Shown here: positions 30,001 through 39,000 of the stretch, piece after piece
How positions within the stretch are numbered: position 1 is the first letter of the stretch
How the letters are laid out: every line of letters starts with the position of its first letter
NCBI GenBank assembly: GCA_024275975.1
Contig: JAJRYC010000004.1
Span: 1-64,000, forward strand
Length of the DNA stretch: 64,000 nt
From: Nitrospirota bacterium
GTDB taxonomy: Bacteria > Nitrospirota > Thermodesulfovibrionia > Thermodesulfovibrionales > UBA6898
Direction of reading: 5' to 3'
Program-made: the position numbers

Positions 30001-33000
30001 TTTGTATGAGGAGGATAGTGATTTGATAGTGATAGAACCACCAGATAATTTTAATTGCTCTTACGAAATGATGGTGAACAATATGACCCGCCGTATTCCA
30101 CGGCAGATATTGGCACTATGAATATATATGATAATATACAGAAAAAAGTTTACCAATGGCATTCTCAACATCCTGAGGGTATTGAAAGTTTTGTAGATAA
30201 TATAATTAGAGAGAGCAACAACGAGACAGTTCAGAAGCTGAATGATTTTGTTGATTATCTCACTATGTATGGTCTTAAGGATCATCTCCCCAACGCATAC
30301 ATTGACGCGAAATATCACTTAAAAGAAAAAGCGATTGAAAATCTTGATGCTTCCCCTGATGATAAAACAAAGGCCGCATTATATGATTGGCTAAAGATAT
30401 GTATAAATACTCAAAAAGATATAAATTACGATTTTTATTTTGAGAAAAACAACCTGAACAGAGAAGAAGAAGTAAAAACAATACTTTTTGGGAATGGCAA
30501 GCTGCGAAAAATCTTTAAGAACCGAGATTGGCAGATTCGCCTGAAGACCGTAGCGGACTGGTTTTTGAGAAGATACAACGGGGAAATAGCAAGAGACATA
30601 TTGAGATCTCACCAAAATTTTGACTGCTGGGACAATCTCAAGCTATTTTATCCACGTATGATAGTGGCAATAATCGTTGGGCTTTTAGCGTTGATGACAG
30701 GACAGGAGATTTGGGATCTGCCACATAACATTTCTGGTCGTATAACCGGAGTAATCTATGGCCCAATCGCAAAGTTTTGGGGATGGCATTTGTCAGATGC
30801 GTATAGTAATTTAGTAAGTCTTATCGGTTTATTAGTTATTGTTTTCTTTTTTTATGTGCTTTCTGTTCTATACTTGCGCTATGAATGCTACAACATAATA
30901 TTTGACACAAAAGCAGCTGGATGCAGGGCAAGAAAAGTGGGTGGACGAGGGTTATTTGCAAGTTTAATATTGTCGACCTTAATCTGTTATGCAATTGGAC
31001 CTATCTCGGGTACTAAAGAAGTAATGAATCCCGCTACATATTACAGTTGTCAGGCAGGTCTACCCGTTTTTAAAAATATCATTTTCTTTGCCTCTGCCGC
31101 CCTATTTATCGGTATCTTCATGCAGGTCTTCTGGGAGAAGGAAACAATTACGGAGCCGTTATAAACTCGATGTATAAAGTTAACCAACGGCTAAGAGGAG
31201 AGTTGCATAGTTAAAATCCATGCATCACAACCAATGAGACATCAATCTATAATTCAGCCGGAGGCAAGTTATCTGAAAGAAAGCCTTTCAGTATTCAGCG
31301 CTTTAAAGGTTGAATTCACTCTATTCCCTCTTGAGACTATCCATCTCGGTCCTGACGAGGTTAAAGGTGATCGCTGGAGAGGTTGTTTTGGGGAGGCGTT
31401 AAGAAGACGTGCGTGTGCGTTCAGGTGGAAAGAAATCGACTGCAATAAATGCGATGTCAGAGGAGACTGTCTATATCACGGGTATTTTTTCATAGACAGG
31501 CCGCATCCTTATGTAATGCTCCCCGAGCTTGACGGCAAACGGGTATATAATACGGGGGAAAGGATGCTGCTTGAAATGGTGCTTATCGGAGCGGCAGCAG
31601 AGCATGTGGATAAGTTTGTAATGACTGTTGAAGAGATGGGCAGAATGGGTATAGGCGGCGGAAGAGGGAGATTTCGAGTGAACTCCGTGGTGGCAGAGGA
31701 CTCAATTGATGCTTCCGGGTTTTTTGAAGAAGAACCCCTGACTGTTGACCATTGCACCATTGAATTGCTTACCCCGCTCAAAATAAAAGAGGGGATAAAG
31801 GGGCTCAATTATTCCAATCTCTCTTTTGAGACCTTTTTCAGGCTTTTAATAAAAAGAATTATCAACCTTAACAACCTTTACTGCAATGGCAGGGGCTTTA
31901 ACAAGGAGCGGATTGAGCCTGAGAAACAAAACCTTTTTACGTTGGCCGGTGAGATTGAAACAAAAACATATACAGAATGGCGGGACTTCAATAGATTTTC
32001 CTCAAGACAACATAAGTCACTGAAAATTGGGGGACAAATAGGGATAATAAGGTATAATGGAGAAATAGGCCGGTTTTATCCATATCTTAAGATGGGCGAG
32101 GTGCTTGGGGTCGGGCAGCATACAACAAGCGGATTCGGAAGATACCGCATAAGTACCGCCTGAGAAATACGGGTATAAGGTAAAAGTTTAACAATAGGCA
32201 AGTAACAGGGTAAGAATAAAGAGAAAAATCTTTATTTAAATGAATTGTCTCAGGCGGTCGTTGTAAACACAGGCTCTTTGACAACTTAAAAGCTGTTTTG
32301 TGGTATAATTTTCATGGTATGGGAAAGCAAAATGCTATTCAGGCGGAAACCATACTGTATAGGCTTATGTGTCAAGGCTTTACAGGGGGAGGCTTCCGAA
32401 GAGCCGTAGATAAGAGGCAACTGAAACAAATGAAGCTCCTTTATCTTTTTACAGAGCTGTTCGTTTCTTCCGAAGAGCCGTAGATAAGAGGCAACTGAAA
32501 CCTGTAATAGCGGCGTTATAGCTAACTATTAATGCCACTTCCGAAGAGCCGTAGATAAGAGGCAACTGAAACGCAAGGCAAGCGCCAAGCAGCACGGCTC
32601 AAAATCCTGTCTTCCGAAGAGCCGTAGATAAGAGGCAACTGAAACAAAGTTGTAGTCAATCAACCACTCGGTAATCTTCTTCTTCCGAAGAGCCGTAGAT
32701 AAGAGGCAACTGAAACTGGATCCGGGGGTTGGGTCTGAGACTCCAGACCCGGCTTCCGAAGAGCCGTAGATAAGAGGCAACTGAAACCATCGCTTTGTTT
32801 ATACTGGCGTATTCCAAAACATTCTTCCGAAGAGCCGTAGATAAGAGGCAACTGAAACTCGCGCCCGCCGCAATTACGGCTTCAATAACCTCGCAACTTC
32901 CGAAGAGCCGTAGATAAGAGGCAACTGAAACACTATATAAACCAACGCATTCAGCATGATCATTTCACTTCCGAAGAGCCGTAGATAAGAGGCAACTGAA

Positions 33001-36000: not shown

Positions 36001-39000
36001 GCGGCAGCTGCCCGGTATTTTTCTGCTCTAAGGACTTTGTTGGGTGACGGGTGGGATTTCAGGAAAAGACAGAAGCAGCCGCCGCCGGACCCTGTAAACA
36101 GTCTGCTGAGTTATGGATATACCCTGCTTTTTTATAATATTTATGCAATGGTCAGAATGCACGGCCTACATCCATATATCGGTTTTTTGCACATATTGAG
36201 GAATGGACATCCCGCTCTTGTATCCGATATACTTGAAGAGTTTAGAGCTCCGGTTGTGGATGCTACTGTGATCAGCCTGATCTTGAGGGGCAGCATTAAG
36301 CAAAAAGATTTCCTTTTGCCCGGTGATAGTGGTGCACCGTGTCTACTGACGGGTGATGCAAGAAAGATTTTTATAAGGGCCTTTGAAAGTAAAATGAACA
36401 GCTCTATTTCTCACGGTCCTACAGGATATCATGTTGATTACAGGAGGTGTATTGATCTTCAGGTGCAGGGACTAAGGAAGATGATTCAGGGGAACTTAAA
36501 TAAATATGAACCAATGTTGATTAAATAATTATGTTTTACATGGTATGTTATGACATAAGTGATGATGGTCGCCGAAGAGAGGTCCAGAGAACCCTAAAGG
36601 GTTATGGAAAGAGAGTGCAGTATAGCGTGTTTGACTGTAATATATCGGATTTGCAATATAGACGACTCAGAGATGAAATCCTTTCCAGAATTGACAAAGA
36701 TTCGGATAGTGTCAGGTTTTATCCAATTTGCAATGCATGTGCTGGTAAAATCGAATATAGAGGGGCCGGAAATATAAGTGAAGACGAACGGTTTTTTATT
36801 GTATAGCGATGTTTATGGTTATAACCTACGATATTATAGATGATAAAAGAAGAGAGAAGGTTGCCTCTGAAATGCAAAATTATGGGATGAGGGTTCAGAA
36901 GAGTATATTTGAGTGCTATCTTGACTATGATCAAATTGATACACTGAAAGCATCTCTTGAAACTATGATTGATATCACCACCGACCATATCAGATTTTAT
37001 TATCTATGCAAAAAAGACCAGAGTAAAACAGCAGTTGAAGGTGTGCAGCTTATTTACAGAAATAACGACTAGTTTATGATTTAATCGGTTAAATTGTTAC
37101 AATCTTTTTTAAGGGGATTTATGCATGGGGACTAAGGTCAGACCATATATTCATACCACTAAAAAATCGGGCATATGGAATTCCTTCTTCGCCGTCAGGC
37201 TGGGTTCCGTCACCGTGTTTGACCCATCCTCCGGAGACTACAGGGACTTTGCCTTCAAGCTGCTGAACCGGCAGATAGACTTCATCAACAGCCTTGACTG
37301 CCCGGAGGACGGCAGGGTCTTTGAGCTGAGATTCATATGCCGGCCTGACAGCTCATTACACTTAAGAGGCAGGATTGATATTGTCATGATCGTGATGGTA
37401 TCCGATACCGAAAAGAACTTATCTCTCATAAAGGCCGGGGATATTTTTCATGACATATGGTCCATGCTTGCCGCAATATCCGATCACTATGAATTTGAAT
37501 GTATAACGACCAGGGATGATTTTCTGTCGGTTTATGCCCCCTTCCCTGTCCGGGAAATCGTTGAAATTAGCAGGAGAGAGGACATTATCGAAGTCGAAAC
37601 TGCAAAAAGACTGAGGGGTTTTGGAGCGGATAAGGAATTATATGGCAGTGACAAAAACAGGATATATTTTGTCTATCCCTTTATCTGGAGCGTTAATTCC
37701 CTTGCAAGGCTGTTCAGCGTTATGCTGTTCCAGGACGCCCCATGTTTCTTAAGTATATCTTTAAAGCCTGTTGACTTTAGCGGTGAAATTGAACAATTTT
37801 TTGAGAAGCAGATTGACCTGTGCGAAAGATATCTTGCTTCGGACTCACAGGCGAGATCACCCGTCAATGCAAGGATTGAGTTCATCACAAAGACACTCCA
37901 GAGTCAGCTTTTAAGGCTTGAAGACTCACCGTTTCTGATGAAAATCAGGATCGCCTCCAATGGAAAAGTCCAGCGTGCTTTGATAGATTCCTTTGGCGTG
38001 GAGATTACGGAACATGCGGGGTCTCCCGATCTCATCAAAGACTCTAATGACGCCTACGTCTTCTCGGGCGGGTATGACTGGCGCTGCTTCAGTGGTGAAA
38101 GGGAGAAGAGAAAAGAGCTGGATAACCTGAAACATATGCAGTTCGGTCATTACGCCGGGACACTGGCGGATAAAACTGACAGACATGTCAGGTATCTCTT
38201 TGACGCAAACCAGGCCAATTGCGCCTTCAGATTTCCCCTGCCCAGGGCCGACGAATTGCCCGGTATAGAGACCAGATTTTACAGGAAAGTGCTCCCCCCA
38301 CCGGATGTTCCCGCAGAAGGGATTATAATCGGGAAGAATGTTATCCATGGACAATCCCATTATATCCGGCAGTCTGAAGACGACAGGCGGAGGCATACAT
38401 ACGTGGTGGGACAGACCGGAACGGGCAAGTCAACCCTGTTTCTGAATATGGTCCTTCAGGATATTGAAAATAACAAAGGGGTGGCTGTGATCGACCCGCA
38501 CGGCGAGCTGATCAGCGAAATAATGCCGAGGGTGCCGAAGCATAGAATAGACGACGTTGTATATGTAAACTTCGGGGACATAGAAAATCCCGTTGCATTC
38601 AATATGCTTGAATACGGGGATGAGCTTGAGAAGGATTTTGTGGTTAATCAAATGTTCGAGATATTCGCCAAGCTCTATGATTTACAACAGACCGGCGGAC
38701 CAATGTTTGAGCAATACATGAAGAACGCCCTGCTTCTCATCATGGATGACCCGGATTCCGGATCGACGCTCCTTGAAGTGCAGAAGGTCTTCGCGGAGCC
38801 TGAATTCAGGAAGTATAAACTCTCAAGGTGCCGGAACAGATATGTCCTGGAGTTCTGGGAAGGCATTGCCCGGAGCGCCGGGGGAGAATCGTCTCTTGAG
38901 AATATGGCGCCATACATAGTAAGCAAGCTCTCAATGTTTATATACAACAATACCATGCGTAATATCATCTCATCACAGAGGTCATCTATAGATATGAGAC

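What a model noticed while it worked through the whole genome (the two positions that open the first line are those of the whole stretch)
32393..36528. Natural CRISPR spacers taken from the cell's own 23S rRNA and a 6S RNA in an RT-Cas1 genome
Of 43 spacers in two type III arrays only two match the genome outside the arrays, and both hit abundant stable RNAs: C109 spacer 15 copies 33 nt of 23S rRNA (sense) and the leader-proximal C11 spacer is antisense to 34 nt of an unannotated 6S RNA, each ending in letters not in the template. Reading: RT-Cas1, the only Cas1 in the assembly, records cellular RNA in the wild, and such spacers persist because they are sense-oriented or mismatched next to the crRNA tag, leaving a guide that could trim 6S RNA without firing Cas10. 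New: native arrays with RNA-derived self spacers, including one against a regulatory RNA.
Evidence so far: Matches C7:27124-27092 (33/33) and C55:9978-10011 (34/34); unmatched ends of 4 and 8 nt at the RNA's 3' side. Stable RNA genes are 0.34% of the genome, two of two by chance about 1e-5. RT motif FADD intact; tblastn finds no second Cas1. 6S identity: calls 39, 108.
(Added by a program. Inside this text positions count along the whole contig: contig position 1 is position 1 of the stretch shown here. "Call 12" and the like, gene names such as g00115 and contig names such as C1 are that model's own, and its searches are not shown. The text may have been shortened before it was handed on; [...] marks where a part breaks off. 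The agent that wrote the report below was given it as the finding of a first reader that could run no searches.)

Follow-up and report, generated by a model that had tools for sequence, protein, structure and literature searches.

The report
Tailed CRISPR spacers from host RNA
In this bacterium four of 64 CRISPR spacers copy its own genes (23S rRNA, a second 6S-like RNA and two protein genes), and three end in extra letters on the RNA's 3' side, likely a natural trace of a reverse-transcriptase Cas1 storing pieces of RNA, a process so far shown mainly in the laboratory.

Summary
Both reported matches are real, but the count is wrong. The assembly has four arrays and 64 unique spacers. Four match the genome: 23S rRNA (sense), a divergent second 6S RNA (antisense), hsp20 (sense) and a yeeE/yedE gene (sense). 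Three have 4-8 unmatched letters, all on the source RNA's 3' side, whichever way the spacer sits. A relative with a 65%-identical RT-Cas1 has a fifth case: 28 nt antisense to a transposase gene plus a 7-nt purine end, again 3'. Such ends are the published RT-Cas1 signature (PMC11014452), so RNA origin is likely (0.7). Against: two ends resemble the next repeat's start, bulk spacers show no tail bias, and RT-free type III systems also favour rRNA. The proposed 6S-trimming role is not supported. The III-A module that probably serves that array is cut by an IS after csm2, and no csm3-5 is in the assembly. The spacer is more likely a harmless recent insertion. Known mechanism; new natural footprint; few events.

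The parts
22159..29424 (+). Type III-D-like effector operon: short Cas10 (GGDD present, no HD domain found), five RAMP genes, Csx10-like and Csx19-like genes
   Evidence: Csx7 over cut-off; Csx10, Csx19 and Cas10 models under their cut-offs
29432..30121 (+). Cas_APE2256 (CARF / ring-nuclease-like) gene
31234..32163 (+). cas6
32240..32392 (+). Leader with a -10-like element; left boundary approximate
   Evidence: sequence; degenerate last repeat at the far end
32393..34431 (+). CRISPR array, 29 repeats of 35 nt, 28 spacers of 34-39 nt (27 unique)
33434..33470 (+). Spacer 15: 33 nt identical to own 23S rRNA (sense) plus 4 non-matching letters at the RNA's 3' side
32646..32681 (+). Spacer 4: full-length match to a foreign contig in public runs, no unmatched end seen (internal control)
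   Evidence: table 7
34459..36528 (+). RT-Cas1 fusion, 689 aa, FADD motif; both domains under purifying selection
   Evidence: dN/dS 0.065 RT, 0.092 Cas1 against G346
36531..36806 (+). cas2 (first)
36809..37072 (+). cas2 (second)
18975..19351 (+). Second, small array in the window (6 repeats of 36 nt, 5 spacers, none matching the genome)

Best explanation
Four spacers copy the cell's own genes and three carry non-genomic ends on the RNA's 3' side, likely because an RT-bearing Cas1-Cas2 took short fragments of abundant RNAs, extended their 3' ends and integrated them; they likely persist as harmless by-products. Shown: the matches, their strand, the ends, an intact RT-Cas1, and a III-A operon cut after csm2. 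Inferred: RNA rather than DNA as substrate; that the ends were added by the RT; that the window's RT-Cas1 (not a missing second Cas1) also wrote the C11 and C67 arrays (about 0.55); that sense spacers are silent and the single antisense spacer lacks a complete Csm complex.
For: (a) Side of the end follows the RNA, not the array: two sense spacers have it at the leader-distal junction, two antisense spacers at the leader-proximal junction; 4 of 4 ends of 4 nt or more are RNA-3' (1 in 16 if side were random). (b) Templated parts are 33, 33, 34 and 28 nt, below the shortest spacer of each array (34, 35, 35, 32), as reported for RT-Cas1 (PMC11014452). (c) Two ends are pure purine (8 and 7 nt), matching the reported A/G preference. 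(d) Independent case in G194, RT-Cas1 65% identical. (e) Ends are not known alleles: the 23S end replaces conserved consensus letters and no other of 151 class genomes holds the tailed 26-mer within 3 mismatches; hsp20 contigs in 4 of 4 runs laid continue as the genome does; none of 7 6S homologues has the end, which would break a predicted helix. (f) RT domain conserved and under purifying selection. (g) Three of four self spacers are sense, as in M. mediterranea with active interference (PMC5576922). (h) III-A operon: IS end directly after csm2; 4 left and 4 right IS ends in the assembly, none leading into csm3; no RAMP gene outside C109. The three self spacers of the C11/C67 arrays sit at positions 1, 1 and 3 (p 0.004, post hoc).
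Against: Only five informative events. The hsp20 end equals the first 6 letters of the following repeat and the 23S end matches 3 of its first 4, so both could be junction duplications unrelated to RT. The yeeE spacer has no end. A self spacer in G041 (distant RT-Cas1) differs by one letter on the RNA's 5' side. Pooled spacers of RT-linked arrays show no pyrimidine excess at the 5' end (0.568 vs 0.562, p 0.36, n=220), and the window's array shows a deficit. Two foreign protospacers match full length without ends. RT-free III-A systems also favour rRNA, tRNA and structured loci (PMC8860600, PMC8860593) and some of their spacers carry non-coded letters (PMC11014452). Self-match rate in RT versus non-RT arrays is not significantly different (6 of 187 vs 0 of 66, p 0.34). 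The C11/C67 repeat is no closer to the window's repeat than shuffles (p 0.35), and 12 of 13 related III-A loci with a visible Cas1 have a plain one. Codon bias does not show high expression of hsp20 or yeeE (80th and 40th percentile).
Confidence: 0.7

Rival explanations
1. The spacers came from DNA at transcribed or structured loci, through the Cas1 domain or a plain Cas1 in missing DNA; the ends arose by duplication of repeat letters at the junction, by slippage in A-runs, or by ordinary non-coded addition.
For: RT-free III-A systems prefer rRNA/tRNA and hairpin loci. The hsp20 end is exactly the repeat's first 6 letters; the 23S end is 3/4 like it. The 6S end follows an A-run whose length varies in relatives. 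DNA upstream of the C11 leader is missing and related III-A loci mostly carry plain Cas1.
Against: Does not explain why the end switches junction with RNA polarity, nor the two 7-8 nt pure-purine ends, which do not resemble the adjacent repeat end. Ends of 2 nt or more are reported as uncommon without RT.
Confidence: 0.2
2. The spacers were taken from a related strain or species whose alleles differ at these ends, or are assembly artefacts.
For: The genome is a 111-contig assembly; related populations with the C11-type leader occur at higher depth in the runs. The hsp20 end can also be read as an in-frame 3-letter insertion. Other rRNA operon copies are not in the assembly.
Against: 33-36 letters are perfectly identical and all differences cluster at one end; conserved 23S letters and a 6S helix would be broken; run contigs show the genome allele of hsp20; each spacer sits at normal spacing between intact repeats.
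Confidence: 0.05
3. One reading: the antisense spacer is kept because it guides a type III complex to cut the second 6S RNA without activating Cas10, so CRISPR regulates a regulator.
For: The crRNA would pair over 34 nt and mispair at +2, +4, +5 with a wobble at +8; 5'-end pairing is needed for cOA production but not for cleavage in T. thermophilus Cmr (10.1101/2021.02.01.429135, abstract). The C33 cas6 and the III-D complex are intact, so cross-loading is possible.
Against: The III-A module lacks csm3-5 in the assembly. The spacer is the newest in its array, and in one run the C11-type leader is followed by one repeat and different sequence. The target is the paired strand of the internal stem. 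No conservation in any relative was seen.
Confidence: 0.05

Closest known systems
Vibrio vulnificus YJ016 type III-D with RT-Cas1 and two Cas2 (PMC6821258)
   Same: III-D-like effector, RT-Cas1 fusion, two cas2 genes; rRNA among the spacer sources.
   Different: There, spacers were induced in E. coli from plasmids; here they stand in native arrays of an environmental genome.
Marinomonas mediterranea Cas6-RT-Cas1, 3'-dN tailing of RNA protospacers (PMC11014452; PMC5576922)
   Same: Non-coded letters at the RNA's 3' end, purine-rich, bringing short fragments to spacer length; sense bias of surviving self spacers.
   Different: No Cas6 fusion here; ends reach 7-8 nt (1-6 reported); two ends resemble the next repeat's start, which was not seen in the passages read; evidence here is genomic only.
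RT-free type III-A acquisition at rRNA/tRNA and hairpin loci (S. epidermidis PMC8860600; S. thermophilus PMC8860593)
   Same: Self spacers from rRNA and structured RNA genes.
   Different: Those systems have no RT and mostly 0-1 non-coded letters (per PMC11014452).
6S / SsrS RNA (Rfam RF00013)
   Same: Long rod with central bubble, sigma70-like promoter, homologues that hit RF00013 full length on the same strand.
   Different: The C55 copy scores below the family cut-off and is a second, divergent copy beside a canonical 6S on C102.

Membership tests
RT-Cas1 adaptation module of type III CRISPR | Group II intron-like RT fused to Cas1 in one frame | tested here: met
   PF00078 and PF01867 in one 689-aa ORF; best PDB match Cas6-RT-Cas1 7kft, E 1e-74
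RT-Cas1 adaptation module of type III CRISPR | Intact RT catalytic motif and conservation | tested here: met
   FADD aligned with FADD of 7kft and of G346, G194; dN/dS 0.065
RT-Cas1 adaptation module of type III CRISPR | Adjacent cas2, array and type III effector | tested here: met
RT-Cas1 adaptation module of type III CRISPR | Demonstrated acquisition from RNA (splice-junction or RT-dead test) | not testable with these tools
   only the indirect tail signature could be examined
RNA-derived spacer (signature of PMC11014452) | Two or more non-coded letters at one junction, at the RNA's 3' end | tested here: met
   3 of 4 self spacers here, 1 of 1 in G194; not met by the yeeE spacer or the G041 spacer
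RNA-derived spacer (signature of PMC11014452) | A/G-rich added letters | tested here: inconclusive
   two ends pure purine, one 5/6 purine but equal to the repeat start, one pyrimidine; no bulk signal
Type III-D | Cas10 plus Csx10, Csx19 and several Cas7-like RAMPs | tested here: inconclusive
   Csx7 and TIGR03986 over cut-off; Csx10 167.5 vs 177.3 and Csx19 27.1 vs 35 bits, under cut-off but in the expected order
Type III-A (C33) | csm1-csm5 complete | tested here: not met
   cas6, csm1, csm2 only; IS end after csm2; no csm3-5 found in the assembly
6S RNA (RF00013), C55 element | Score over the Rfam gathering cut-off | tested here: not met
   20.9 vs 46.4 bits; 1 of 7 homologues passes, all 7 hit full length
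6S RNA (RF00013), C55 element | Rod with central bubble, conserved with compensatory changes | tested here: met
   z -6.8; 15 of 47 pairs with two-sided change in 8 sequences
6S RNA (RF00013), C55 element | Binds RNA polymerase and templates pRNA | not testable with these tools
   no RNA holder listed

The most novel reading that the evidence does not exclude
Wild RT-Cas1 leaves a readable RNA signature in native arrays: a short templated core plus a non-genomic end on the transcript's 3' side. Here one RT-Cas1 also writes, in trans, into two arrays orphaned by IS breakage of their III-A effector, which turns them into an unpunished natural transcript recorder. Such tails (80-89% of the spacer matching) would fall below the usual 95% identity and coverage filters and could hide part of the 'enigmatic' RT-linked spacer pool.
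Probability: 0.35. Interest if true: 0.72.

Novelty: new member of a known kind. Interest (0 to 1): 0.5.

Why it matters
RNA spacer acquisition by RT-Cas1 is shown with overexpression; whether it operates in nature is open, because almost no natural RT-linked spacer could be traced (PMC5513706). A polarity-linked tail can be scored on public genomes without experiments, so it makes that question testable at scale. It also suggests relaxing end-coverage filters in spacer-to-target searches. No regulatory role for the 6S spacer is supported.

Tried and rejected
Searches with no result: window repeat in genome contigs (0) and in 5 handles (0); window array against phages and plasmids (no match); cores of spacers 4 and 16 in viral contigs (0); earlier findings (nothing). 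No RNA holder listed. The runs laid are low-depth contigs that mostly do not cover the arrays, so persistence of the self spacers could not be tested. Self searches in other RT-Cas1 genomes: G194 1 of 13, G041 1 of 63 unique counted, G346 0 of 49, G340 0 of 5, G299 0 of 10, G057 0 of 23 (in only 40 of 84 and 40 of 47 candidates were scored). Plain-Cas1 III-A arrays: G045 0 of 40 (40 of 44 candidates scored), G057 0 of 23 unique. Bulk end-composition test negative when pooled; 2 of 13 single arrays (G194, G340) had p under 0.01, uncorrected. Codon adaptation inconclusive. No close homologue bridging C33 and C11 was found among 61 metagenome loci. A pRNA origin of the antisense 6S spacer was considered and rejected as less likely: the extra letters would lie at the pRNA's 5' end (pRNA biology recalled, not from a call). 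Similarity of the purine ends to the A/G-rich end of the C11/C67 leader was noticed but not tested.
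Full report
1. What is there. The window is contig C109 of a 2.5-Mb, 111-contig assembly. Its nearest RT-Cas1 relatives with titles are Nitrospirota MAGs. The locus holds a III-D-like operon, cas6, a leader, a 28-spacer array, a 689-aa RT-Cas1 and two cas2. A scan for all arrays found four: C109 32393-34431 (28 spacers), C109 18975-19351 (5), C11 30814-32064 (16, minus strand) and C67 18257-19493 (16); C11 and C67 share one repeat and a 95%-identical leader. 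Orientation rests on leaders, degenerate far-end repeats (C109, C11) and the usual 3' repeat ends (the last recalled).

2. Observation. Of 65 spacers (64 unique), four match outside arrays; the other 61 rows reach only 21-27 identical letters at best. They are: C109 spacer 15 to 23S rRNA, sense, 33 of 37; C11 spacer 1 to C55:9978-10011, antisense, 34 of 42; C67 spacer 1 to a yeeE/yedE gene next to a tusA-like gene, sense, 36 of 36; C67 spacer 3 to the end of hsp20, sense, 33 of 39.

3. The 6S target. The canonical 6S is on C102 (84.5 bits). The C55 element scores 20.9, under the 46.4 cut-off. It folds as a rod with a central bubble (z -6.8), has a TTGACA-17-TAAATT promoter on the + strand, and has homologues in 7 loci of 5 family members, all hitting RF00013 full length on the matching strand, one over cut-off; 15 of 47 consensus pairs show two-sided changes. 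It is best called a divergent second 6S RNA. The spacer covers the 3' strand of the internal stem and the 3' bubble.

4. The unmatched ends. In RNA-sense view the ends are CTTT (23S), GTGAGA (hsp20) and AAGAAAGG (6S), all 3'. In G194, whose RT-Cas1 is 65% identical, 1 of 13 spacers matches its own genome: 28 nt antisense to an HTH_Tnp_1 transposase gene, followed by GAAAGGA on the RNA's 3' side. The end is leader-distal in the two sense cases and leader-proximal in the two antisense cases, so it follows the transcript. Four of four has a chance of 1 in 16: suggestive, not proof. Templated parts (33, 33, 34, 28 nt) are shorter than the shortest spacer of each array. Mohr et al. (PMC11014452; passages; abstract and methods section of the preprint) report that RT-Cas1 spacers mostly carry two or more non-coded letters, A then G favoured, at the RNA's 3' end, filling short fragments to length, while RT-free Cas1 spacers mostly do not. 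Allele explanations fail where tested: conserved 23S letters are replaced (one search is a weak test, since the own allele already uses all 3 mismatches), hsp20 contigs in 4 of 4 runs laid follow the genome (contigs drop rare variants, and the runs come from 2 studies that may be one data set), and no 6S homologue has the end.

5. Results against. The hsp20 end is exactly the first six letters of the next repeat and the 23S end matches three of four, so these may be junction duplications. The yeeE spacer has no end. The one self spacer in G041 (distant RT-Cas1, TraT-family gene, sense) differs by a single 5'-side letter. Bulk spacers show no tail-like bias when pooled, and the window's array goes the other way. 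Two foreign protospacers seen in runs match full length (C109 spacer 4; C67 spacer 7 with 3 differences). Other RT genomes give 2 self matches in 163 unique spacers; plain-Cas1 arrays 0 in 63. A Fisher test on the counts then in hand was not significant. RT-free III-A systems favour rRNA and hairpin loci (PMC8860600, PMC8860593; passages).

6. Which Cas1, and why the spacers persist. A second cas set lies on C33: cas6, csm1 with HD and GGDD motifs, csm2. An IS end follows the csm2 stop directly; the assembly holds four left and four right ends of this IS, none leading into csm3, and no RAMP gene exists outside C109. In the closest homologue csm3 overlaps the csm2 stop. The simplest reading is loss of csm3-5, though an unbinned contig cannot be excluded: 72 of 222 contig ends have no partner, including the C11 leader end, and a 30-letter stretch found upstream of the C11-type leader in the runs is not in the assembly. 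That the C11/C67 arrays belong to this III-A set is inferred from similar repeats beside related cas10 genes. Of 13 related III-A loci with a visible Cas1, one is RT-fused; G340 also pairs a similar repeat and a similar Cas6 with adjacent RT and Cas1 genes. So the writer of C11/C67 is either the window's RT-Cas1 in trans (possible per PMC5513706, passages) or a missing Cas1. Sense self spacers survive type III interference and antisense ones are removed unless interference is lost (PMC5576922, passages). This fits: three are sense, and the one antisense spacer is the newest in an array whose effector looks broken. The 5'-end mismatches could add tolerance (10.1101/2021.02.01.429135, abstract only), but nothing indicates a function.

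7. Known and new. The machinery is a known kind (PMC6821258, passages), and self-targeting spacers in RT-bearing type III strains were noted before (PMC6990116, passages). A report of tailed, transcript-polarised self spacers in native arrays, or of a spacer against 6S RNA, was not found in searches; the library lacks most subscription papers and supplements were not opened. Silas et al. could trace almost no natural RT-linked spacers and used 95% identity and coverage in one search, which all four tailed spacers here would fail. The yeeE gene resembles the YTD cluster, reported as upregulated in a sulfur disproportionator (PMC13293266, passages); high expression here is not shown.

8. Verdict. 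Real observation, miscounted; RNA origin likely (0.7); regulatory reading unlikely (0.05). Interest 0.5: a known mechanism with a new natural footprint that makes an open question testable, resting on five events.

Noticed in passing
G000:C33:10684 and ends of C59, C64, C98, C28, C50, C79, C97: A four-copy IS with inverted ends flanked by a near-palindromic site; one copy cuts the III-A operon at the csm2/csm3 junction.
   Followed up: partly
L006:13258-14811 (C67 array and right flank): The array ends on a perfect repeat directly followed by a transposase-like ORF, suggesting truncation by an IS (family not confirmed by Pfam).
   Followed up: partly
window 32646-32681: Spacer 4 matches a foreign contig in two runs; read by eye with its flanks it looks antisense to an integrase-core transposase frame.
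   Followed up: partly
window 32717-32752, 33506-33542, 33723-33759: Spacers 16 and 19 are identical and, with spacer 5, are antisense to an Asp-Pro-Thr repeat; no viral match found.
   Followed up: partly
L155:11618-12910 (G333): Orthologue with most of the RT domain deleted in frame (433 aa): a natural RT-less control; no array found within the 55 kb fetched.
   Followed up: partly
C67 and C11 leader ends versus the hsp20 and 6S spacers: The leader ends in an A6G4 run; 12 letters at the end of the hsp20 spacer and 8 in the 6S spacer also occur there, so some 'tails' might be copied from leader or repeat DNA.
   Followed up: no
L005:1011-11851 (C11): Cluster with tail sheath-, tube-, baseplate- and AAA-ATPase-like ORFs, resembling an extracellular contractile injection system (labels by eye).
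   Followed up: no
window 18975-19351: Orphan 5-spacer array whose repeat resembles the RT-Cas1-linked repeats of G041 and G057; spacers 31-34 nt.
   Followed up: partly
G013 (L134, L147), G024 (L135, L148): Two copies each of the divergent 6S-like RNA; the family may carry a second 6S class poorly covered by RF00013.
   Followed up: partly
window 30055-31164: 369-aa ORF with hydrophobic C-terminal half between the CARF-like gene and cas6, no Pfam or NCBIfam hit; possible membrane effector.
   Followed up: no
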